Origin: Escherichia coli | Lineage (GTDB): Bacteria > Pseudomonadota > Gammaproteobacteria > Enterobacterales > Enterobacteriaceae | NCBI RefSeq assembly: GCF_011045215.1 | Contig: NZ_CP049201.1 | Reading direction: 5' to 3' (one strand) | DNA length: 64,000 nt | Shown: in pieces, positions 42,044-59,054 of the stretch | Layout: each line of letters opens with the position of its first letter | Position numbering within the stretch: the first letter of the stretch is position 1 | Notes under the pieces: generated by a model | Database searches by the model: none | The model's input: the letters and a program-made list of their open reading frames with translations, nothing else | Told to the model about the DNA's origin: nothing | Program-made: the position numbers and the translations under genes

Positions 42044-42119
42044 GCCGATATAGCTCAGTTGGTAGAGCAGCGCATTCGTAATGCGAAGGTCGTAGGTTCG
42101 ACTCCTATTATCGGCACCA
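42044..42119 (+). tRNA. thrW: tRNA-Thr (anticodon CGU)
   Basis: GCCGATATAGCTCAGTTGGTAGAGCAGCGCATTCGTAATGCGAAGGTCGTAGGTTCGACTCCTATTATCGGCACCA, cloverleaf with CGT anticodon and 3' CCA. Confidence 0.9.
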
Positions 42120-50015: not shown

Positions 50016-50506
50016 GCATGAGTCTTTTGAATGACGTTCAGAAATTCATTGAAGCCCATCCGGGCTGTACTTCCGGAGATATTGCGGATGCTTTTGCCGG
50101 TTACTCACGGCAGCGCGTTCTGCAGTCAGCAAGCAAGTTACGTCAGAGTGGGCGTGTGGCTCACCGTTGTGAAGGAGATACACGCAGACATTTCCCGCGC
50201 CTGACTGAGAGAGCGCAGGAACCGGAACCACAACCAGTTCGTGAAACCAGACCTGTGCGCAATTTCTATGTCGGCACTAACGATCCCCGTGTGATTTTGT
50301 GCCTGACCCGCCAGGCGGAAGAACTGGAGTCCAGGGGCTTATACCGTCGTGCTGCAACCGTGTGGATGGCGGCATTCCGTGAAAGCCACTCCCAGCCAGA
50401 ACGAAACAATTTTCTGGCGCGTCGTGAGCGGTGCTTACGGAAAAGCAGCAAGCGCGCTGCATCGGGTGAAGAGTGGTATCTGTCAGGGAATTACGTGGGG
50501 GCTTAA
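50012..50506 (+). CDS. phage protein with PerC-like C-terminal domain
   Basis: AEELESRGLYRRAATVWMAAFRES resembles the PerC/Pch signature. Confidence 0.45.
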   Translation: MSMSLLNDVQKFIEAHPGCTSGDIADAFAGYSRQRVLQSASKLRQSGRVAHRCEGDTRRHFPRLTERAQEPEPQPVRETRPVRNFYVGTNDPRVILCLTRQAEELESRGLYRRAATVWMAAFRESHSQPERNNFLARRERCLRKSSKRAASGEEWYLSGNYVGA

Positions 50507-51159
50507 TGAGTAATAAATATTGCCAGGCGCTGGTGGAACTGCGGAACAAACCAGCCCATGAACTGAAGGAAGTGGGCGATCAGTGGCGCACGCCGGACAA
50601 CATTTTCTGGGGAATTAACACCCTGTTTGGCCCGTTTGTTCTGGATCTGTTCACTGACGGTGATAACGCCAAATGTGCCGCGTATTACACGGCGGAAGAC
50701 AACGCGCTGGCGCATGACTGGTCAGAACGTCTTGCGGAGCTTAAAGGTGCTGCCTTTGGTAATCCCCCATACAGCCGCGCCAGTCAGCATGAGGGGCAAT
50801 ACATCACCGGCATGCGTTACATCATGAAACATGCCAGTGCCATGCGTGATAAGGGCGGGCGCTATGTTTTCCTGATCAAAGCTGCCACCAGCGAAGTGTG
50901 GTGGCCGGAAGATGCAGATCATATTGCTTTTATTCGCGGGCGTATTGGTTTTGAACTGCCTGTCTGGTTTATCCCGAAAGACGAGAAGCAGGTACCGACA
51001 GGAGCTTTTTTCGCTGGTGCTATTGCTGTTTTTGACAAGACCTGGAAGGGACCGGCAATCAGCTACATCGGGCGCGATGAACTTGAGGCATGTGGTGAGG
51101 CGTTTCTGGCGCAGGTTCGCCAGCAGGCGGAAAAACTGGTCAGGGAGATGGCGGCATGA
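50506..51159 (+). CDS. phage DNA N6-adenine methyltransferase (Dam-like)
   Basis: NPPY motif (FGNPPYSRA); start at MSNKYCQ. Confidence 0.75.
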   Translation: MSNKYCQALVELRNKPAHELKEVGDQWRTPDNIFWGINTLFGPFVLDLFTDGDNAKCAAYYTAEDNALAHDWSERLAELKGAAFGNPPYSRASQHEGQYITGMRYIMKHASAMRDKGGRYVFLIKAATSEVWWPEDADHIAFIRGRIGFELPVWFIPKDEKQVPTGAFFAGAIAVFDKTWKGPAISYIGRDELEACGEAFLAQVRQQAEKLVREMAA

Positions 51160-52686: not shown

Positions 52687-53682
52687 GTGACCGTGAGAGC
52701 ACTACTGACCCCTGAAATTGCCCCGCGTATGGGGATCGTATTGTTCAGACCAGGTTCAGAGCTGATGCCCCTGTTTATGCAGGGGCGTGTACTGCTGGAG
52801 CCTGAGCCGGAACGTTATTCATCTTTCGCCAGTGGTGCCGTTCCCGCGGCATCACAACCGCTGGCGGATGATCCTGCTGTTCGGGCCGTGTTCCGCAATG
52901 AGGCAGTGATCCGTCGTGCTGGTGGCGTGGAATGTCTTGAAAGCTGGTTACTTCGTGAAAAAGGCTGCCAGTGGCCTCATTCCGACTGGCACAGCGAGAA
53001 CATGACCACAATGCGACACGCTCCGGGCGCAATCCGTCTGTGCTGGCACTGTGATAACCAGCTGCGCGATCAGTTCACGGAACGGCTGGAATCAATGGCA
53101 ACGGATAACTGTGCCCGCTGGGTGTTGTCTGTTGTGCGTCGGGATCTCGGTTTTGATGATAGTCACGTTGTGACAATGCCGGAACTGTGCTGGTGGCTGA
53201 TTCGTAATGACCTGGCGGATGCCTTACCGGAAAGTGCAGCCCGTAAGGCACTGAGATTACCAAAGCCTGTTGTGCCGTCTGTCACCCGGGAAAGTGACCT
53301 TGTGCCTTCGGTTCCTGCCACCAGCATCATCCAGGATAAGGCAAAAAAGGTGCTGGCGCTGAAAGTGGATCCGGAGTCGCCGGAGTCTTTTATGTTACGC
53401 CCAAAACGTCGCCGCTGGGTTAATGAGAAGTACACGCGCTGGGTTAAGACACAGCCGTGTGCATGTTGTGGAAAGCCCGCTGATGATCCCCACCACCTGA
53501 TAGGCCACGGTCAGGGGGGAATGGGTACAAAAGCGCATGACCTCTTTGTGTTGCCTTTGTGCAGAAAGCATCACGACGAGCTGCATGCGGATACCGTGGC
53601 ATTTGAAGAGAAGTATGGCTCCCAGCTGGAGCTGATATTTCGTTTTATCGATCGTGCGCTGGCAATTGGCGTGCTGGCCTGA
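52687..53682 (+). CDS. phage protein, DUF968-like (Cys/His-rich)
   Basis: C-terminal CxxC...HH...PLCRKHHDELH pattern. Confidence 0.5.
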   Translation: MTVRALLTPEIAPRMGIVLFRPGSELMPLFMQGRVLLEPEPERYSSFASGAVPAASQPLADDPAVRAVFRNEAVIRRAGGVECLESWLLREKGCQWPHSDWHSENMTTMRHAPGAIRLCWHCDNQLRDQFTERLESMATDNCARWVLSVVRRDLGFDDSHVVTMPELCWWLIRNDLADALPESAARKALRLPKPVVPSVTRESDLVPSVPATSIIQDKAKKVLALKVDPESPESFMLRPKRRRWVNEKYTRWVKTQPCACCGKPADDPHHLIGHGQGGMGTKAHDLFVLPLCRKHHDELHADTVAFEEKYGSQLELIFRFIDRALAIGVLA

Positions 53683-53696
53683 TTTGGTGGAGAAAG

Positions 53697-54065
53697 TTGA
53701 TGCGTGATATTCAGATGGTTCTTGAGCGTTGGGGAGCATGGGCGGCGAGTGATAGTTCAGGCGTTGACTATTCACCTATAGCTGCTGGGTTTAAGGGACT
53801 TCTTCCCTATACCAGCAAGAAACGCTTGGCTTGTTCGGATAGTGATGCATTAATTATTGAAGGTTGTCTTGCTCGTCTAAAGCAAAAAAGACCTTATGAG
53901 CATTCGCTTCTTGTGGCACATTATTTATACAGAATATCCAAGCGTAAGATTGCAAAGGCGCGTGGAAAGGATGAGAAATTGATACGTATAGAAATACAGC
54001 TAGCCGAAGGATTTATTGATGGCTGCCTTTCCATGCTAGATCTAACATTAGATTTGGACGTTTAA
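53697..54065 (+). CDS. Q: late-gene antitermination protein Q
   Basis: 122 aa with LERWGAWA motif; positioned before the lysis genes. Confidence 0.65.
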   Translation: MMRDIQMVLERWGAWAASDSSGVDYSPIAAGFKGLLPYTSKKRLACSDSDALIIEGCLARLKQKRPYEHSLLVAHYLYRISKRKIAKARGKDEKLIRIEIQLAEGFIDGCLSMLDLTLDLDV

Positions 54066-54066
54066 T

Positions 54067-54091
54067 AATACGCCCCATGCAGGGGCGTATT
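54067..54091. terminator. bidirectional hairpin terminator between Q and the KAP NTPase gene
   Basis: Perfect inverted repeat aatacgcccc-atgca-ggggcgtatt flanked by A/T runs. Confidence 0.5.
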
Positions 54092-54093
54092 AT

Positions 54094-55425
54094 TTACTGG
54101 ATGAATGACATTTGATTAATATATTTTATCAATAACTCTCTGGGTGTAGTACTCCAAAAATTTAGGTGTTCATAATCAGTATAAACATTGGTGAATTTTT
54201 TAAGTTCTTCATCACTTTTAGGGGCAAATCGCTCATTAAGAGTAATACTGTCTTTAATTATTCCGAAGAATACAATAGATATTTCAGGAATTTGCGATCT
54301 TCTCTCATAAGAATAAGGTATTTCTTTTATGTTAAGCAGATCTGCTAAATGAGATATAGATTCTGCGGTAATTTCTTGTTTTAGTTTTTCCTTGTCACCA
54401 AAGCAATGTATGAAGACAGCTACGACAAAGATCTTATTTATTAAAGGATCACTGCTTTTGTACTCATCGTCGTTTAATAGTTGAAAAATGTTAAGATTGC
54501 GTGAAAAAGTTTGTGTTTCACGTAAGGATAAGTTGGTTCGTTGAATTAAATCACGGATAAATCTACCAGATAAACTATTAATTTCATTTAATGATTTTGT
54601 CTTGTCTACAAGGTAATTCCAATATATAACAGATGTTTTACATACGACGTGACCATTTATTAAACATGTGTCTGGAAGCGTGATGGTATATTTTATAAAC
54701 TTGTCAAGATACTTTTGTGAGTTAATACTATAACCATAAATATGATTTATCGATGCTTTTAATTGTTCTGTGTTTGTAACTAAAATAAAAAAGACATTAT
54801 TGATGTCAAAAATGTGTTTTATTGTTTCAATGACATTTGTTGAAAAACTCGGCTTACATCGGTCTAATTCATCAATTATAATTACTATCTTTTGACTTTC
54901 TGAAATGCTTTCGATGCAAGATTTAAGTGAATTTATGTTTTTCTCTGATTCCATATGGTCTTCAAGCAAATTTTCAATAGTCCCATCTATTGCTGCATTG
55001 CTTGCTTTCTTCATCGCATCTTGGAATTCTTCGGAAACTTCACTAGCCTCCTGTCGTAAAAACCAACCTGCACCAGCTTTTAGTACCGTTTTTAAACCAA
55101 AGCGAATTGCAGGAAGAGATCTCTTAATGAAGTGTTGTTTTTCTTCCTCAGGTAAAATGCTGGCAATTGCAGAGGTTATGAGAAGTAATGGAGATTCTGC
55201 ATGATCCCCTTTAAAGGCATCAATATAAACAACTTTAGATTCAGTTTCTTGCTCAATAATGAGATTTTTCAGTTTGATACTAAATTCTGTTTTCCCTGTT
55301 CCCCATGCGCCGTCTATTACCAGTGGTGAAATGTCTGCCTCTGGTTTTAGCAACTTGATGATATTTTCAGCGATGTTTCTGCGTTGGAACTCGTCACGTT
55401 CAGTGAAAGATAGTGTATCTAACAT
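54094..55425 (-). CDS. KAP-family P-loop NTPase (prophage cargo; candidate defense protein)
   Basis: 443 aa; Walker A DGAWGTGKT, Walker B IIIDELDR; AT-rich; antisense to the late operon. Confidence 0.75.
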   Translation of the reverse strand: MLDTLSFTERDEFQRRNIAENIIKLLKPEADISPLVIDGAWGTGKTEFSIKLKNLIIEQETESKVVYIDAFKGDHAESPLLLITSAIASILPEEEKQHFIKRSLPAIRFGLKTVLKAGAGWFLRQEASEVSEEFQDAMKKASNAAIDGTIENLLEDHMESEKNINSLKSCIESISESQKIVIIIDELDRCKPSFSTNVIETIKHIFDINNVFFILVTNTEQLKASINHIYGYSINSQKYLDKFIKYTITLPDTCLINGHVVCKTSVIYWNYLVDKTKSLNEINSLSGRFIRDLIQRTNLSLRETQTFSRNLNIFQLLNDDEYKSSDPLINKIFVVAVFIHCFGDKEKLKQEITAESISHLADLLNIKEIPYSYERRSQIPEISIVFFGIIKDSITLNERFAPKSDEELKKFTNVYTDYEHLNFWSTTPRELLIKYINQMSFIQ

Positions 55426-55487
55426 AATATAAACCTATTAACTCCTACAGTAAAAAACGAATAATACGACTTTGGGATTAAAAATCA

Positions 55488-55516
55488 TTAACGCGGTCCG
55501 CAAAAATTCTTGTAAT
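55488..55516 (+). promoter_or_regulatory. candidate late promoter (PR'-like)
   Basis: TTAACG -35 and TGTAAT -10 with 17-bp spacer, upstream of terminator and holin. Confidence 0.35.
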
Positions 55517-55548
55517 CTGTTAAGAGTGGTTACTTCGCCACACAGCTT

Positions 55549-55582
55549 AAACCCGCCGTCGAGCGGGTTTTGTCGTTTTTGT
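55549..55582 (+). terminator. intrinsic terminator (tR'-like, Q target)
   Basis: aacccgc-cgtcga-gcgggtt hairpin followed by ttttgtcgttttt. Confidence 0.45.
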
Positions 55583-55721
55583 TGCTGGGGATTCGTTGGG
55601 CCTGGCCTATCCAGCAGTTATCCATTGGTTCGGCTCTTTGACGTTTCCGCTTCTGATTTGCGGTACATGATGTTCCCTCAATTTGCACCTGCTGTATCAG
55701 CGAGGTGAGAGATAACTACAA

Positions 55722-56048
55722 ATGCCTCATAACCCAAATACTTGGCTGGACTTGGTCCAGAGCTGGTGGCGTGGAGACACACCGCTGGGCGCAGTGATTA
55801 TGTCGATTGTTATGGCTGGTTTGCGTATCGCCTACTTTGGTGGTGGTGGCGGCTGGAAGCGAAAAACGCTCGAGATTTTGCTCTGTGGCGCTCTGACTCT
55901 GACTTTTGCATCCGCGCTTGAGTATGTCGGATGGCCTAAATCACTTTCTGTTGCCATTGGTGGTGGCGTTGGGTTGATCGGTGTCGATGCTATTCGTGGG
56001 GCTGCAATGAGAGTAATCGGTAATAAGTTTGGTGGCTCTAAGGAGTAA
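55722..56048 (+). CDS. S: holin
   Basis: 108 aa, hydrophobic helices, charged C-terminus; directly upstream of endolysin. Confidence 0.6.
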   Translation: MPHNPNTWLDLVQSWWRGDTPLGAVIMSIVMAGLRIAYFGGGGGWKRKTLEILLCGALTLTFASALEYVGWPKSLSVAIGGGVGLIGVDAIRGAAMRVIGNKFGGSKE

Positions 56049-56051
56049 TTT

Positions 56052-56528
56052 ATGCAGGTACTAAATTCCCAGCGTAAAGCTTTCCTCGATATGGTGGCAT
56101 GGTCAGAAGGAACGGATAACGGGCGACAACCGACACGTAACCACGGTTATGATGTTATTGTTGGCGGCGAACTGTTCACTGATTACTCCGATCACCCTCG
56201 CAAACTTGTCACGCTAAACCCCAAACTCAAATCAACAGCCGCCGGGCGTTATCAGCTTCTTTCACGCTGGTGGGATGCTTACCGTAAACAGCTTGGTTTG
56301 AAAGACTTCTCCCCCAAAAGCCAGGACGCAGTGGCATTGCAGCAGATTAAAGAGCGTGGCGCTTTACCGATGATTGATCGCGGTGATATCCGTCAGGCTA
56401 TCGATCGTTGCAGCAATATCTGGGCGTCATTACCCGGCGCTGGTTACGGTCAGTATGAACATAAAATCGGTGACCTGATTGCCCGATTCAAAGAGGCTGG
56501 CGGGGTGGTAAATGAAGTTGAGCTATAA
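56052..56528 (+). CDS. R: endolysin (lambda R-like lytic transglycosylase)
   Basis: Matches lambda R as remembered (NSQRKAFLDMVAWSEGTDNGRQPTRNHGYDVIVGG...). Confidence 0.9.
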   Translation: MQVLNSQRKAFLDMVAWSEGTDNGRQPTRNHGYDVIVGGELFTDYSDHPRKLVTLNPKLKSTAAGRYQLLSRWWDAYRKQLGLKDFSPKSQDAVALQQIKERGALPMIDRGDIRQAIDRCSNIWASLPGAGYGQYEHKIGDLIARFKEAGGVVNEVEL

Positions 56529-56973
56529 GCTGGTTATCGTTGCTTTCTTCGTTACTGTCATTGGTTCTTTCATCTGTTCAGTGAATCGTTACCACAATAA
56601 AGCCATTGAATACAAAATGCAGCGTGATGAGAATGCTATGGCATTAGATTCGGCTATGGCGACCATCTTTGATATGCAGAAGCGTCAACGTGACGTAGCA
56701 GAACTTGACGCCAGATACACAAAGGAGCTTGCTGATGCTAATGCGACTATCGAAAGTCTCCGTGCTGATGTTTCTTCTGGGCGTAAGCGCCTGCAAGTCG
56801 CCGCCACCTGTGCAAAATCAACGACCAGAGCCAGCGGCATGGGCGATGGAGAAAGCCCAGGACTTACAGCAGATGCTGAATTCAATTATTACCGTCTCCG
56901 AAGTGGAATCGACAGGATAACCGCACAGGTTAATTACCTACAGGAATACATCAGAACTCAATGCATGAATTAA
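56512..56973 (+). CDS. Rz: i-spanin Rz
   Basis: 153 aa, N-terminal TM, coiled-coil body; overlaps R stop. Confidence 0.8.
   Translation: MKLSYKLVIVAFFVTVIGSFICSVNRYHNKAIEYKMQRDENAMALDSAMATIFDMQKRQRDVAELDARYTKELADANATIESLRADVSSGRKRLQVAATCAKSTTRASGMGDGESPGLTADAEFNYYRLRSGIDRITAQVNYLQEYIRTQCMN
56735..56920 (+). CDS. Rz1: o-spanin Rz1 (lipoprotein embedded in Rz, +1 frame)
   Basis: Lipobox GVSAC followed by Pro-rich segment; start codon choice uncertain. Confidence 0.6.
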   Translation: MLMRLSKVSVLMFLLGVSACKSPPPVQNQRPEPAAWAMEKAQDLQQMLNSIITVSEVESTG

Positions 56974-57582
56974 AAGAGGCAGATTGATCGTGTTTTCGAA
57001 GTGTTATACCACGCCCGTTCTGTTAATTTGGCAAAATCTGTTCTGATGCAATGAGTATCGAAAGATTTATTGGACTGGTTGCTTTGGTTATCACTGTTAT
57101 CGCTGGAGTTGTTGGCCTAGGGCGTATCCGTGGCACTAGTAAAAGAAGAGGTTAAAACTGCTCTGTTATACACTGAAGTTAACGCAGCGGCTAAGCACTC
57201 AGCAGCAGGACACCGTGTAGAGGCAACGGAAGAGGCCAGAAATATACAGCAGACTATTAACCATATTCCTGGTGACTCTGTTGAGCGCGGTATGCATAAG
57301 AAATACAAACGTACAATTTGAAGTGGTATATTTTTCTTGTTAGTAGATGAATATAATATACCACACAGAATACGATATAATTATTGCTCATGCTTACCTA
57401 AATATGAAAAACAATAAAGTTATAAGTAGACAAGTGTTTTGTTACTTTTAATAATTGATGTGATGTATATATTAAGATTGAAAAATTTAATCATTCTTTC
57501 CACATATAAATTAAGTGGTTCCCTTAGCTTGTCATTTTTGATGATAAGTGAGAGAATATGAACATTATATGATGGAGATAAT

Positions 57583-57894
57583 ATGTCAAACATAAAAATC
57601 AAACAAGCTATTGAAAAGATTGCGGAGTTCAGAGCAGCATCTGCTGCGATGGCTGATGCTCACATGGTTCTTATTACAGAGCTATTGAACTCAATTGAGG
57701 ATATCCGCAAAAACTCTGGTGATAATCTCTCTGAGTTTGAAAAAGGACAGGTTGCTCTCTACATAAAAATTAGCCCAGTTGTGAAAAATGGAATTTCGAG
57801 TATTGAAAAATATAATGAGTCTTTAAGTTCAGACTATGTTGAGGCTATGAACTCCTTATCTAAAATTGCGGGAGGGAATTCAAATGTCGATTGA
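57583..57894 (+). CDS. hypothetical protein (first gene of AT-rich three-gene cargo operon)
   Basis: 103-aa ORF with RBS, predicted helical; AT-rich. Confidence 0.4.
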   Translation: MSNIKIKQAIEKIAEFRAASAAMADAHMVLITELLNSIEDIRKNSGDNLSEFEKGQVALYIKISPVVKNGISSIEKYNESLSSDYVEAMNSLSKIAGGNSNVD

Positions 57895-58270
57895 AGATGT
57901 TGGAAGCATCCTTGATAGATTAAAAGTAGCCAGGATCGAAAATAAAAAAATTGAAGAGTCAGCTGGAAAAGCAGAGGAAAATGCTGTTAACTCTAAGCAT
58001 ACTGATGGTAAAACACGAAGCGCCTTAACTATTACGTTTCTCTGGTTCTTTTTTTGCCTTCTTATTTTTAGCTGTCTTTTTGTTCTTTGGTATAATAATT
58101 CTGTTGTGAATTGGGCTTTAGAGTTAAAGAGCAAAGGTGTTGATGATTACGTTCAATATTTAAAGCCACTCGAGCTGGAAAAGGTATTGTCAATAATGAT
58201 TACTGCCCTTGGTACTTCATTAGGATTTATAATTGGGTATTATTTTAAGGATAAAGAAAATCATTCTTAA
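57884..58270 (+). CDS. hypothetical two-TM membrane protein
   Basis: Start MSIEDVG overlapping upstream stop; two hydrophobic helices (LTITFLWFFFCLLIFSCLFVLWY, VLSIMITALGTSLGFIIGYYF). Confidence 0.4.
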   Translation: MSIEDVGSILDRLKVARIENKKIEESAGKAEENAVNSKHTDGKTRSALTITFLWFFFCLLIFSCLFVLWYNNSVVNWALELKSKGVDDYVQYLKPLELEKVLSIMITALGTSLGFIIGYYFKDKENHS

Positions 58271-58315
58271 TATAGAGTTATCTCTAAAGATAACGAATTT
58301 TAATAGGAGGGTAGA

Positions 58316-58618
58316 ATGTCTGAACTGAATTATGAAGCAATAGGTCGCTGCAAAATCCTTAATGAAAAGATCAAAGATCTTCATGCTGAACGAATGAAAG
58401 CTATTGGTGATTTACGTACTGCTGTCTATGCCCTTCATCAGAAAGGGAATGTAAACCTCATCCCACCAGAAATTGTTGAATTCAACCCCCAATCGCTTAC
58501 ATCCCTTGTAGAGAAGGTTGGTCACTATGATGGTGAGCTGATGCGAGCTGTACATGAGTACAACAACTGGTGTGTAGAAGCAGGCGAGAAACCCGTAAAA
58601 CTTATAAAGCTAGACTGA
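58316..58618 (+). CDS. hypothetical protein
   Basis: 100-aa ORF with GGAGG RBS; followed by hairpin plus T-run at about 58630-58665. Confidence 0.4.
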   Translation: MSELNYEAIGRCKILNEKIKDLHAERMKAIGDLRTAVYALHQKGNVNLIPPEIVEFNPQSLTSLVEKVGHYDGELMRAVHEYNNWCVEAGEKPVKLIKLD

Positions 58619-58703
58619 AACAACAAATTTATGCAAATCATTAGCCTCGCACATGCGGGGCTTTTTTATGCGCACCACACATGCACATCAAAGAGAGTCT
58701 TCA

Positions 58704-59054
58704 ATGCCGCCACGAATCCCAAAAGCCTGCCGTGTTCGCGGTTGCCGCCATACCACGACTGACCCGTCAGGCTACTGCGAAAGCCACAAAAGCGAAGGCT
58801 GGAAGCAATACAAACCTAGACAATCCCGTCATCAGCGCGGCTACGGTTCGAAGTGGGACAGTATCCGCGCGCGTGTCCTGAAGCGTGACAAAGGCCTGTG
58901 TCAGTTATGTCTGCGTGCCGGTGTGGTGCGTGAGGCGAAAGCCGTTGACCACATCATCCCTAAAGCGCATGGCGGCACTGATGCCGACTGTAATCTGCAG
59001 AGTCTGTGCTGGCCGTGTCATAAGGCGAAGACGGCCCGTGAACGGCTGAAGTGA
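58704..59054 (+). CDS. HNH endonuclease (terminase-associated)
   Basis: Cys-rich HNH motif (CQLCLRAG...VDHIIPKAHGGTD...NLQSLCWPCHKAK). Confidence 0.8.
   Translation: MPPRIPKACRVRGCRHTTTDPSGYCESHKSEGWKQYKPRQSRHQRGYGSKWDSIRARVLKRDKGLCQLCLRAGVVREAKAVDHIIPKAHGGTDADCNLQSLCWPCHKAKTARERLK

What the first reader, a model, noticed from the sequence alone, without database searches (positions are those of the whole stretch)
54094..55425. KAP-family P-loop NTPase carried antisense between Q and the lysis cassette: candidate single-gene anti-phage system
A 443-aa ORF with Walker A (GAWGTGKT) and Walker B (IIIDELDR) typical of KAP NTPases lies between the Q antiterminator gene and the holin, on the opposite strand to the whole late operon. 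Its composition is much more AT-rich than the flanking phage genes and it has its own hairpin terminator (54067-54091). The Q-to-lysis gap is a well-known cargo slot in lambdoid prophages. KAP NTPases recur in defense islands but, as far as I know, have no settled mechanism. The C-terminal two thirds has no motif I recognise and could carry an effector or sensor domain.
Basis: partly seen in the sequence, partly recalled or inferred. Interest (0 to 1): 0.8.

Follow-up and report, generated by a model that had tools for sequence, protein, structure and literature searches.

The report
Prophage KAP ATPase, candidate phage defence
A dormant virus in this E. coli genome carries one extra gene for a soluble ATP-burning switch protein, in a swap-in slot where related viruses carry other anti-virus genes; it most likely protects the host from other phages, but its family is already catalogued as an untested defence candidate.

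Summary

New here: the 1.44-kb cassette (54042-55479) sits between Q and a conserved late-control element. In this slot, sister prophages and phages SfII, SfIV and PA-2 carry at least nine different cassettes, all antisense. One matches the models for DS-1, a DefensePredictor system. Three more are PADLOC candidates, and one is the lc/nmpC porin. KAP homologues in five genera keep the Q-adjacent position. Others sit between cI and int of 186-like prophages. The gene is under purifying selection (dN/dS ~0.2). The closest solved folds are the defence ATPases RdrA and BrxC.

Verdict: a probable single-gene anti-phage ATPase and a new member of a known kind. Its mechanism is unproven.

The parts
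54094..55425 (-). CDS of a 443-aa soluble KAP-family P-loop NTPase (PADLOC PDC-S20; RefSeq 'KAP family NTPase', WP_050921965.1 in a 99.9%-identical locus)
   Evidence: ORF. Pfam PF07693 E 8.9e-70 over residues 15-317. PDC-S20 E 9.4e-177 over residues 3-442. phrog_8614 E 1.8e-188. RefSeq annotation. dN/dS ~0.2.
55288..55311 (-). Walker A motif GAWGTGKT (residues 39-46)
   Evidence: Motif search. G42, G44 and K45 are invariant in 100 homologues.
54859..54885 (-). Walker B / KAP signature VIIIDELDR (residues 181-189)
   Evidence: Motif search. D185, E186, D188 and C190 are invariant.
54895..55149 (-). Long helical hairpin (residues 93-177) inserted between Walker A and Walker B, at the position where membrane-bound relatives carry transmembrane helices; here it is not hydrophobic
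   Evidence: AlphaFold2 model, helices 93-127 and 132-177, with pLDDT 62-69 in the middle of the insert (residues ~121-150). Maximum Kyte-Doolittle 19-residue hydropathy 1.35.
54097..54474 (-). C-terminal six-helix bundle (residues 318-443): the fastest-evolving part and the presumed recognition surface
54064..54094 (.). 13-bp perfect hairpin filling the gap between the convergent Q and KAP genes and overlapping both stop codons; presumed bidirectional terminator or insulator
   Evidence: Folds at -23 / -21.4 kcal/mol, z -5.2 / -5.7. Compensatory C-G to T-A change in Citrobacter loci. Not called by the T-run rule.
55426..55479 (-). 54-bp AT-rich (28% GC) upstream region of the KAP gene; it must hold the gene's own promoter and ribosome-binding site, but these are not verified
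   Evidence: GC content. One 9/12 promoter-like match at 55454-55426, though promoter-like sites are no commoner here than in shuffles. Homology to sister prophages starts only at 55480.
54042..55479 (.). The exchangeable cassette: the region with no similarity to sister prophages that share both flanks
   Evidence: blastn breakpoints against L002, L024, L004, L022 and L023 fall at 54019-54043 on the left. Breakpoints against those five loci plus L020 and L003 fall at 55479-55493 on the right.
53697..54065 (+). Left flank: small (122-aa) Q antiterminator of the QuuD type, convergent with the KAP gene
   Evidence: phrog_79 E 3e-44. RefSeq 'antiterminator Q family protein'.
55480..55580 (+). Right flank: conserved late-control element (presumed pR'/Q-loading region) ending in an intrinsic terminator at 55549-55580
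   Evidence: Near-invariant in 7 loci whatever the cargo. Directly follows Q in cargo-free L004 (Stx2 phage) and L024. Terminator-like site called. Present in 2509 of 5426 E. coli genomes.
55722..56048 (+). First late gene downstream: lambda-family holin, followed by endolysin 56052-56528 and Rz 56512-56973
   Evidence: phrog_126, phrog_90 and phrog_13.

Best explanation
The gene is a single-gene cargo cassette of an E. coli lambdoid prophage. The prophage is SfII/e14-like, with an HK97-type head, and is integrated beside tRNA-Thr. The gene encodes a soluble, minimal KAP-family P-loop ATPase. It most likely protects the lysogen against infection by other phages.

Proposed mechanism, with shown and inferred steps marked:
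1. The gene is transcribed from its own promoter in the lysogen. It runs antisense to Q and lies upstream of the late promoter element, so it needs no prophage induction. The position is shown. Expression is inferred from the lc/nmpC precedent in the same slot, and from homologues that sit on the same strand just downstream of the cI repressor gene in 186-like prophages.
2. The protein is an AAA+/STAND-like switch ATPase with intact Walker A, Walker B, sensor-1-like N218 and lid R302 (conservation shown; the functional labels for N218 and R302 are my inference). It probably forms a ring of about seven subunits, like RdrA and QatA (inferred).
3. The variable lid helices (residues 260-296) and the C-terminal helical bundle (318-443) recognise a protein or DNA structure of the invading phage. 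The variability is shown. The target is unknown.
4. Recognition switches on ATP-dependent assembly or hydrolysis. The ATPase itself is then the effector, because there is no nuclease, protease, TIR or membrane domain. It would act either by trapping or remodelling the phage component, or by a PifA-like energetic collapse of the cell. This step is inferred, and the choice between the two is open.
5. During the prophage's own induction, convergent transcription from the early operon through Q could silence the cassette. This is speculative, but it would explain why every cassette in this slot is antisense.
For: Identity:
- Pfam KAP_NTPase E 8.9e-70.
- PADLOC PDC-S20 E 9.4e-177, full length; PifA N-terminal domain E 1e-17; QatA E 6e-12.

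Functional gene:
- dN/dS is about 0.2 among five E. coli alleles with dS up to 0.13.
- All amino-acid changes fall in residues 131-421. Site 288 is R, Y, D or C.

Position in a swap-in slot:
- The cassette spans 54042-55479, between conserved flanks.
- At least nine different cassettes occupy the same slot, all antisense.
- One matches the NCBIfam DS1 anti-phage models, named for the DefensePredictor DS systems (the second gene above the curated cut-off; the first is split in that strain). That study validated a system with the same YejK nucleoid-associated domain.
- Others are PDC-M53A/B (also in inducible phage SfII), PDC-S42, and an HNH effector-like protein of the PDC-M68A type.
- The porin lc/nmpC also sits there.

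Family distribution:
- Homologues at 43-65% identity in Citrobacter, Klebsiella and Cronobacter sit in the same place next to Q, with different lysis cassettes.
- Homologues at 41-43% (global alignment; 43-47% by local BLASTP) in E. coli and Yersinia sit between cI and int of 186/P2-like prophages, on the cI strand.
- Distant ones lie next to a Schlafen-like gene or an Eco57I-type restriction-modification gene.

Published precedent:
- PDC families were found embedded in BREX, DISARM and type I RM loci.
- Single-gene KAP NTPases protect Enterococcus, and the one tested (EF_KAP) needs its Walker B motif (PMC12632615).
- PifA excludes T7 (PMC13001434).
- QatA forms heptamers or octamers and binds DNA (PMC13279940).
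Against: - No experiment on this protein or on any PDC-S20 member was found. 'PDC-S20' occurs in no held paper, and the PDC set is described as untested.
- The protein matches none of the validated-system models in PADLOC or NCBIfam beyond domain level.
- It has no recognisable effector, so the killing or blocking step is conjecture.
- The KAP gene stays tightly linked to DUF968-Q across five genera. This could instead mean a role in the phage's own late-gene control.
- dN/dS is below 1 even in the C-terminal part (0.3-0.7, based on few substitutions), so there is no proof of an arms race.
- The promoter of the gene is not identified.
- The slot survey covers about 15 loci picked by similarity, not a random sample.
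Confidence: 0.6

Rival explanations
1. The KAP ATPase serves the prophage's own life cycle. For example, it could tune Q-dependent late transcription, lysis timing or DNA packaging, which would make it phage equipment and not an immune gene.
For: The DUF968-Q-KAP order and the convergent orientation, with a 26-38-bp gap (28 bp in the window), are kept in E. coli, Citrobacter, Klebsiella and Cronobacter, while the lysis cassettes downstream differ. The closest non-defence folds are the DNA-bound initiator ATPases Cdc6/Orc1 and DnaA and the transposition regulator TnsC.
Against: Sister prophages with 94-99% identical flanks replace the gene with unrelated cassettes or with nothing (L004, L024), and SfII and SfIV are viable phages without it. 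The same family sits in a completely different place (cI-int) in 186-like prophages, which have no Q of this type, and in a PM2-like element. Its low GC (33% against ~55%) marks it as foreign cargo. PHROGs lists the family as of unknown function.
Confidence: 0.1
2. It is a lysogenic-conversion or 'moron' gene that benefits the host in a way unrelated to phages, or it targets other mobile elements such as plasmids, satellites or conjugation.
For: The Q-lysis region of lambdoid phages also carries non-defence morons such as stx (L004) and porins. PifA, the founding bacterial KAP member, is plasmid-borne, and one paper notes that phage exclusion may not be its primary role (PMC12632615).
Against: A soluble cytoplasmic ATPase with no signal peptide or membrane segment is an unlikely virulence or surface factor. 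All nine full-length genomic contexts examined in relatives at 41-65% identity are prophages or phage-like elements. Family members were first flagged inside BREX/DISARM/RM loci. Neighbouring occupants of the slot are mostly defence-type.
Confidence: 0.12
3. It is only one half of a system. The ATPase is a sensor or regulator that needs a partner encoded elsewhere (in the host or the prophage), as RdrA needs RdrB and QatA works with QatBCD. Alone it would do nothing.
For: The best structural matches are ATPase subunits of multi-gene systems (RdrA, BrxC). There is no effector domain. In Qat, the KAP subunit is dispensable for defence against some phages.
Against: The cassette holds one gene. 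Only 54 bp lie upstream and a 28-bp hairpin lies downstream. No conserved second gene travels with it across the Q-slot, cI-int and other contexts. PADLOC classes the family as single-gene ('S'). Single-gene KAP proteins were sufficient in Enterococcus.
Confidence: 0.15

Closest known systems
PADLOC 'phage defence candidate' PDC-S20 (Payne et al., bioRxiv 10.1101/2024.01.29.577857)
   Same: Full-length match to model PDLC04956 (E 9.4e-177, residues 3-442 on profile 4-449 of 450), and a single-gene architecture. This protein is a member of that family.
   Different: PDC families were defined from copies embedded in BREX, DISARM or type I RM loci and are untested. Here the gene is prophage cargo in the Q-late-promoter slot. 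That context is new information and not a difference in kind.
PifA of the F plasmid (T7 exclusion; founding bacterial KAP NTPase)
   Same: A soluble KAP NTPase without transmembrane helices. The N-terminal ATPase domains are homologous (E 1.1e-17, residues 7-252 on profile 13-255). Both are carried by a mobile element and are single-protein actors.
   Different: The PifA profile is 720 positions long, with a large C-terminal region absent here (443 aa). There is no pif operon context. Whether this protein causes membrane leakage, and what triggers it, is unknown.
RdrA, the ATPase of the RADAR defence system (PDB 8fnt, 8fnu, 8hr8)
   Different: RdrA chains are 780-850 residues in the solved entries and work with the adenosine deaminase RdrB. 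No RdrB-like gene is nearby, and no RdrA model matched in PADLOC at E <= 1. Sequence identity is only 12-15%.
EF_KAP and related KAP NTPase defence proteins of Enterococcus and gut metagenomes (PMC12632615)
   Same: Single-gene KAP NTPases that reduce phage plaquing by up to 6 logs. EF_KAP needs its Walker B motif and is reported not to act by abortive infection. This is the best experimental precedent for a stand-alone KAP defence.
   Different: EF_KAP has two N-terminal transmembrane helices and a 322-aa C-terminal 'effector' region. The protein here is soluble, and its extra domain is only ~125 aa. The hosts are Gram-positive, and the genes were found next to serine recombinases.
QatA of QatABCD, and Tmn (YobI family)
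   Same: QatA is a KAP-family ATPase that forms heptamers or octamers and binds DNA, with a weak domain-level match (E 6e-12). Tmn is a P-loop defence ATPase that senses a phage protein and raises its ATP turnover (abstract listed).
   Different: The NCBIfam QatA score is 35 bits against a cut-off of 600, and there are no qatBCD genes. Tmn has two transmembrane helices inside the P-loop domain and exports Mg2+. This protein has a soluble helical hairpin at that position.
lc / nmpC porin genes of phage PA-2 and prophage DLP12
   Same: The same genomic slot and the same antisense orientation between a QuuD-type Q gene and the conserved element upstream of the lysis genes. From my own knowledge, lc is a classical lysogenic-conversion gene expressed in the lysogen.
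   Different: An unrelated protein (an outer-membrane porin) with an unrelated mechanism. It is relevant only as a precedent for expression and function of cargo in this slot.

Membership tests
KAP family P-loop NTPase (Pfam PF07693) | Significant full-length match to the family HMM | tested here: met
   E 8.9e-70, 235.7 bits, model positions 1-292 of 293, residues 15-317.
KAP family P-loop NTPase (Pfam PF07693) | Walker A GxxxxGK[ST] and the Walker B signature hhhhD[DE]LDR | tested here: met
   GAWGTGKT at 39-46 and VIIIDELDR at 181-189. These residues are invariant in 100 homologues.
KAP family P-loop NTPase (Pfam PF07693) | Transmembrane helices: the family is described as membrane-bound with four TM helices; some members such as PifA lack them | tested here: not met
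   An 85-residue helical hairpin is inserted between Walker A and Walker B, but the maximum 19-residue hydropathy is 1.35, so no membrane segment is predicted. PifA also lacks these helices, so this does not exclude membership.
PADLOC PDC-S20 (single-gene phage defence candidate) | Full-length match to a PDC-S20 HMM and a single-gene organisation | tested here: met
   PDLC04956 E 9.4e-177, profile 4-449 of 450. The cassette holds one gene.
PADLOC PDC-S20 (single-gene phage defence candidate) | Demonstrated anti-phage activity | not testable with these tools
   The PDC set is described as untested. No held paper mentions PDC-S20.
PifA (F-plasmid T7 exclusion) | Full-length similarity to PifA, including its C-terminal region | tested here: not met
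   Only profile positions 13-255 of 720 are matched (E 1.1e-17). The protein is 443 aa.
QatABCD (QatA) | Score above the curated QatA cut-off and neighbouring qatB, qatC and qatD genes | tested here: not met
   NF041923 gives 35.3 bits against a cut-off of 600. The neighbours are Q and the holin.
RADAR (RdrA) | RdrA-type ATPase encoded next to the adenosine deaminase RdrB | tested here: not met
Tmn / YobI-family NTPase | Two transmembrane helices inserted within the P-loop domain | tested here: not met
   No hydrophobic segment, and the insert is modelled as a soluble helical hairpin.
STAND / Avs-type NLR-like defence proteins | Tripartite architecture: an effector domain, a STAND NTPase and a long repeat sensor | tested here: not met
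Prophage cargo ('moron') cassette in a variable slot | Flanks conserved among related prophages, interior replaced by unrelated genes, deviant base composition, own transcription signals | tested here: met
   Breakpoints fall at ~54042 and ~55480. At least nine alternative cassettes and two empty sites were seen. GC is 33% against ~55%. A hairpin lies at the 3' end. The promoter is not verified.

The most novel reading that the evidence does not exclude
This 443-aa soluble KAP ATPase may be a complete immune system in one small protein. Its fast-evolving helical lid and C-terminal bundle would recognise a phage component. ATP-driven ring assembly would itself neutralise the infection, with no nuclease, protease, NADase or pore. 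That effector logic is not yet described for bacterial defence ATPases.

In addition, the Q-to-late-promoter slot of QuuD-type lambdoid phages may be a so far unmined defence hotspot. Its strictly antisense layout could switch the cargo off by convergent transcription when the prophage itself goes lytic. At least three cassettes seen there match no known or candidate system: the TIGR04255 three-gene set, the SDH Clp-fold protease and the SfIV pair.
Probability: 0.25. Interest if true: 0.7.

Novelty: new member of a known kind. Interest (0 to 1): 0.48.

Why it matters
KAP NTPases were predicted to act in conflict systems twenty years ago. The bacterial members studied so far are large, membrane-bound or part of multi-gene systems (PifA, Tmn, QatA, RdrA, EF_KAP), and none has a settled mechanism.

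This protein is a minimal, soluble, single-gene member. It lives in E. coli, it has natural alleles that differ at a handful of surface positions, and phage panels for its host are well developed. If it defends, it would be the easiest KAP protein on which to work out what such an ATPase senses and how it stops a phage without a separate effector.

The second value is positional. The slot between Q and the late-control element holds a model-level match to a DefensePredictor system (DS-1), several catalogued candidates, and at least three cassettes with no match to anything known. It is therefore a cheap place to look for further systems.

If the protein does not defend, the finding is an ordinary prophage accessory gene.

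Tried and rejected
- Megablast of the gene against 50,697 phage records found nothing. tblastn found only distant relatives, at most 45% identity.
- A profile search of all PDB sequences gave no relative beyond generic AAA+ Walker motifs (best E ~1e-3, PEX1). No close KAP structure is solved.
- A transmembrane insert was rejected on hydropathy.
- Membership of PifA, QatA, RdrA, Tmn and Avs was each considered and rejected on architecture or neighbours (see the membership table).
- The promoter scan found no more sites than in shuffled sequence (8 against 7.0 +/- 3.1). The only site upstream of the gene abuts the start codon, so the promoter is unassigned.
- I could not pick out convincing -35 and -10 hexamers in the conserved element at 55480-55548 by eye. 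Its identity as pR' rests on position and conservation only.
- Rfam found no RNA family in 53000-59000 apart from one sub-threshold hit.
- Literature searches for 'PDC-S20', for KAP with prophage, and for a lambdoid Q hotspot found no study of this family or slot.
- The Brenes & Laub prophage-defence paper is cited by 16 held papers but is not itself held. The DefensePredictor supplements are not held either. I cannot exclude that a homologue was tested in either study. However, the NCBIfam DS models, which cover DefensePredictor systems, did not match this protein.
- The pseudogene or chance-ORF reading was rejected on dN/dS and on intact alleles.
Full report
**1. The observation**

It has a Walker A motif GAWGTGKT at residues 39-46 and a Walker B motif VIIIDELDR at 181-189.

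Its left neighbour (53697-54065, plus strand) is a small Q antiterminator (phrog_79, E 3e-44). Its right neighbours are a lambda-type holin, an endolysin and an Rz spanin, all on the plus strand.

The gene has 32.7% GC. The window averages 48.6% and the phage genes upstream have 53-57%.

The 28-bp gap between Q and the ORF is filled by a perfect 13-bp hairpin (54064-54094) that overlaps both stop codons. It folds at -23 and -21.4 kcal/mol on the two strands, far better than shuffles (z -5.2 and -5.7). The Citrobacter homologue locus keeps it with one compensatory pair change. It has no clean T-run, and the terminator scan did not call it, so 'terminator' is an inference.

The ORF is a real gene. 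It has thousands of homologues. Five E. coli alleles that differ by up to 13% at synonymous sites all keep the frame, with dN/dS about 0.2.

**2. What the protein is**

Pfam matches the KAP_NTPase model end to end over residues 15-317 (E 8.9e-70). About 70% of the protein is the KAP module.

No membrane segment is predicted (maximum 19-residue hydropathy 1.35).

An AlphaFold2 model built on 100 homologues is confident (pLDDT 91.8, pTM 0.88). It shows three parts:
- an alpha/beta ATPase core;
- an 85-residue helical hairpin inserted between Walker A and Walker B, at the position where membrane-bound relatives carry transmembrane helices;
- a helical lid followed by a six-helix C-terminal bundle (residues ~318-443).

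In 100 homologues the invariant residues are the nucleotide-binding ones, plus N218, Y230-G231, F243 and R302.

This bundle is the fastest-evolving part of the protein. Identity to homologues is 0.13-0.24, against 0.41-0.56 for residues 1-320. Among E. coli alleles, all amino-acid changes lie between residues 131 and 421, with a cluster at 260-288. Site 288 carries R, Y, D or C.

**3. What is already catalogued**

- PADLOC matches the protein full length to PDC-S20 (E 9.4e-177). It gives only domain-level matches to PifA (E 1e-17, N-terminal 255 of 720 profile positions), QatA and mad8.
- PDC families are 145 untested 'phage defence candidates' found embedded inside BREX, DISARM and type I RM loci (bioRxiv 10.1101/2024.01.29.577857).
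- NCBIfam gives only a far sub-threshold QatA match (35 bits against a cut-off of 600) and no match to its DS anti-phage models.
- PHROGs lists the family as of unknown function.
- RefSeq calls it 'KAP family NTPase'. The whole Q-KAP-holin arrangement is present in 49 of 5426 complete E. coli genomes, including ETEC H10407.
- No held paper mentions PDC-S20.
- KAP NTPases as single-gene defences have been shown in Enterococcus (up to 6 logs; EF_KAP is Walker B dependent and reported as non-abortive; PMC12632615).
- PifA excludes T7 through membrane depolarisation and lacks transmembrane helices (PMC13001434).
- QatA forms heptamers or octamers and binds DNA (PMC13279940).

**4. Where the gene sits**

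Comparison with sister prophages that share both flanks puts the breakpoints at about 54042 and 55480. The left breakpoint is 24 nt before the Q stop codon.

The right flank starts with an element that is nearly invariant in every locus examined (TAACGCGGTCCGC...TGTTAAGAGTGGTTACTTCGCCACACAGC). It ends in an intrinsic terminator at 55549-55580.

In cargo-free relatives, an Stx2 phage (L004) and L024, this element follows Q directly. Part of it is present in 2509 of 5426 E. coli genomes.

I read it as the late promoter, Q-loading region and tR'-type terminator. This is an inference from position and conservation, because I could not assign promoter hexamers.

If the reading is right, the KAP gene lies between Q and the late promoter. 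It is then outside the late transcript and convergent only with the early transcript that ends at Q.

**5. The slot is a cargo hotspot, and its occupants are mostly defence-type**

All cassettes found in the same place are on the antisense strand:

| Cassette | Locus |
|---|---|
| HNH effector-like protein (PDC-M68A, E 7e-27) | L002 |
| PDC-M53A + PDC-M53B | L003, and the inducible Shigella phage SfII |
| PDC-S42 plus a 140-aa ORF | L023 |
| A cassette matching the NCBIfam models DS1_1 and DS1_2 'anti-phage protein' (DS1_2 at 375 bits, cut-off 315; DS1_1 split into two ORFs, each below its cut-off) | L019 |
| Three-gene set with a TIGR04255 protein | L020, L021 |
| SDH Clp-fold serine protease | L022 |
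| Two unknown genes | phage SfIV |
| Porins nmpC and lc | DLP12 and phage PA-2 |

The DS1 model names follow the DS numbering of DefensePredictor. That study experimentally validated a system with a YejK nucleoid-associated domain.

The lc/nmpC case shows that the slot also carries the classical lysogenic-conversion porins. The statement that lc is expressed in the lysogen comes from my own knowledge.

The sample is about 15 loci chosen by similarity, not a census.

**6. Where relatives of the protein sit**

- Homologues at 65%, 62%, 46% and 43% identity, in Citrobacter, Klebsiella, Citrobacter and Cronobacter, all lie convergent with a DUF968-Q pair. The lysis cassettes downstream differ: different holin families, and lysozyme against chitinase-type endolysin.
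- Their Q proteins are 74-80% identical to the window's Q, so the KAP gene diverges faster than Q.
[quoted passage not shown] Many prophage defence genes sit in this kind of position.
- A Photobacterium homologue sits in a PM2-like element.
- Distant ones lie beside a Schlafen-like gene or an Eco57I-type enzyme.
- All nine full-length contexts examined for relatives at 41-65% identity are prophages or phage-like elements.

**7. Most likely function and mechanism**

The best-supported reading is a prophage-borne, single-gene anti-phage ATPase (confidence about 0.6).

Shown:
- family membership and intact catalytic motifs;
- purifying selection;
- cassette structure;
- a hotspot with defence-type neighbours;
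- prophage-specific distribution;
- closest folds are defence ATPases;
- a variable C-terminal surface, and no effector fold.

Inferred:
- expression in the lysogen from a promoter in 55426-55479;
- ring assembly like RdrA and QatA;
- recognition of a phage component by the lid and C-terminal bundle;
- the ATPase itself as the effector, acting by trapping or remodelling its target or by a PifA-like energy collapse.

I slightly favour direct interference. There is nothing in the protein with which to damage the cell, and the Enterococcus KAP protein was reported as non-abortive. This preference is weak.

Speculative: convergent read-through from the early operon shuts the cassette off when the prophage itself is induced. 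This would explain the strict antisense rule in the slot.

**8. Rivals**

- A role in the phage's own late control. The conserved Q linkage suggests it. Free replacement of the cassette, empty sites, viable phages without it and its presence in Q-less prophages argue against it.
- A non-phage conversion function.
- One half of a system whose partner lies elsewhere.

Each rival has a simple experimental test, listed under the next steps.

**9. Novelty and score**

The family is already a listed, untested candidate, and stand-alone KAP defences now have experimental precedent. It is a new member of a known kind.

What this analysis adds:
- the corrected domain map;
- the absence of any effector fold;
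- the structural link to RdrA and BrxC;
- the natural allele series;
- the definition of the Q-to-late-element slot as a strictly antisense cargo hotspot, which also holds cassettes unknown to current databases.

I score interest at about 0.48. A specialist would not be surprised. The protein is still an unusually tractable entry point to the unsolved KAP mechanism, and the slot is worth mining.

Noticed in passing
window 57400-58650: A second AT-rich island (31-38% GC) lies between Rz and the HNH/terminase genes. It has three small plus-strand ORFs (57583-57894, 57866-58270 with a hydrophobic stretch, 58316-58618). They match PHROGs of unknown function and have no significant PADLOC match (only a marginal 2TM_IV hit, E 0.003, for the middle ORF). 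Sister prophages carry different genes there (L002 229 aa, L003 169 aa, L020 184 aa) or none (L022). This looks like a second cargo slot, in the same position where Tai tail-assembly-inhibition systems are reported (PMC11364771).
   Followed up: partly
window 55480-55580; L003, L019, L020, L005: The presumed late-control element is nearly identical next to Q alleles that are only 46-51% identical to the window's Q. If the element is the Q-loading site, either very different Q proteins use the same site or the specificity lies elsewhere. This is unexplained.
   Followed up: no
L020/L021 1605-3332; L022 2284-3279; L040 (phage SfIV) 1460-2882: Three cassettes in the Q slot match no PADLOC family and no named NCBIfam defence model. 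They are a three-gene set including a TIGR04255-family protein, a 331-aa SDH-family Clp-fold serine protease, and a 356-aa plus 108-aa pair in SfIV. By position they are untested defence candidates.
   Followed up: partly
L019 1059-3449: The DS-1-like cassette in strain UID2309220009 has its nucleoid-associated (YejK-like) gene split into two overlapping ORFs, which match the two halves of the NCBIfam DS1_1 model. That copy is probably frameshifted.
   Followed up: no
L015/L016 5494-5976 (Yersinia 186-like prophage): In Yersinia, a 160-aa ORF lies between cI and the KAP homologue. It matches phrog_2561, labelled 'DNA ligase' (E 3e-39), and weakly matches PADLOC PDC-S48. The E. coli 186-like loci lack it, so it may be a second cargo gene.
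   Followed up: no
L037 1576-3237; L036 83-3253: Distant KAP homologues (32-35% identity) lie next to a Schlafen/AlbA_2 plus HATPase_c_4 protein, and next to a 1056-aa Eco57I-type methyltransferase/restriction enzyme near a terminase and an integrase. This is consistent with a defence-island association outside the enterobacterial prophages.
   Followed up: no
L034 (Photobacterium sp. TY1-4 chromosome): A 41%-identical homologue sits inside an element that encodes a rolling-circle Rep-like protein and a protein with PM2-type P2_N/P2_C domains. This looks like a corticovirus-like prophage that carries the same cargo family.
   Followed up: no
window 42044-42119: The only tRNA gene in the window is tRNA-Thr (CGT). 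In the 99.9%-identical genome, the prophage integrase lies directly after this tRNA, next to proA. The window is therefore about 42 kb of chromosome followed by the left 22 kb of the prophage.
   Followed up: partly
window 50473-51159: A 228-aa ORF lies between the PerC-like and LexA-like genes. It has no counterpart in the annotation of the best-matching genome (L001), and a phage N-6-adenine methyltransferase occupies the corresponding position in L004. This early-region gene is variable between otherwise near-identical prophages.
   Followed up: no
window 58580-58673: A sub-threshold Rfam match to the sRNA STnc100 (23.8 bits against a gathering score of 47, E 0.043) lies at the end of the second AT-rich island. 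It is probably chance.
   Followed up: no
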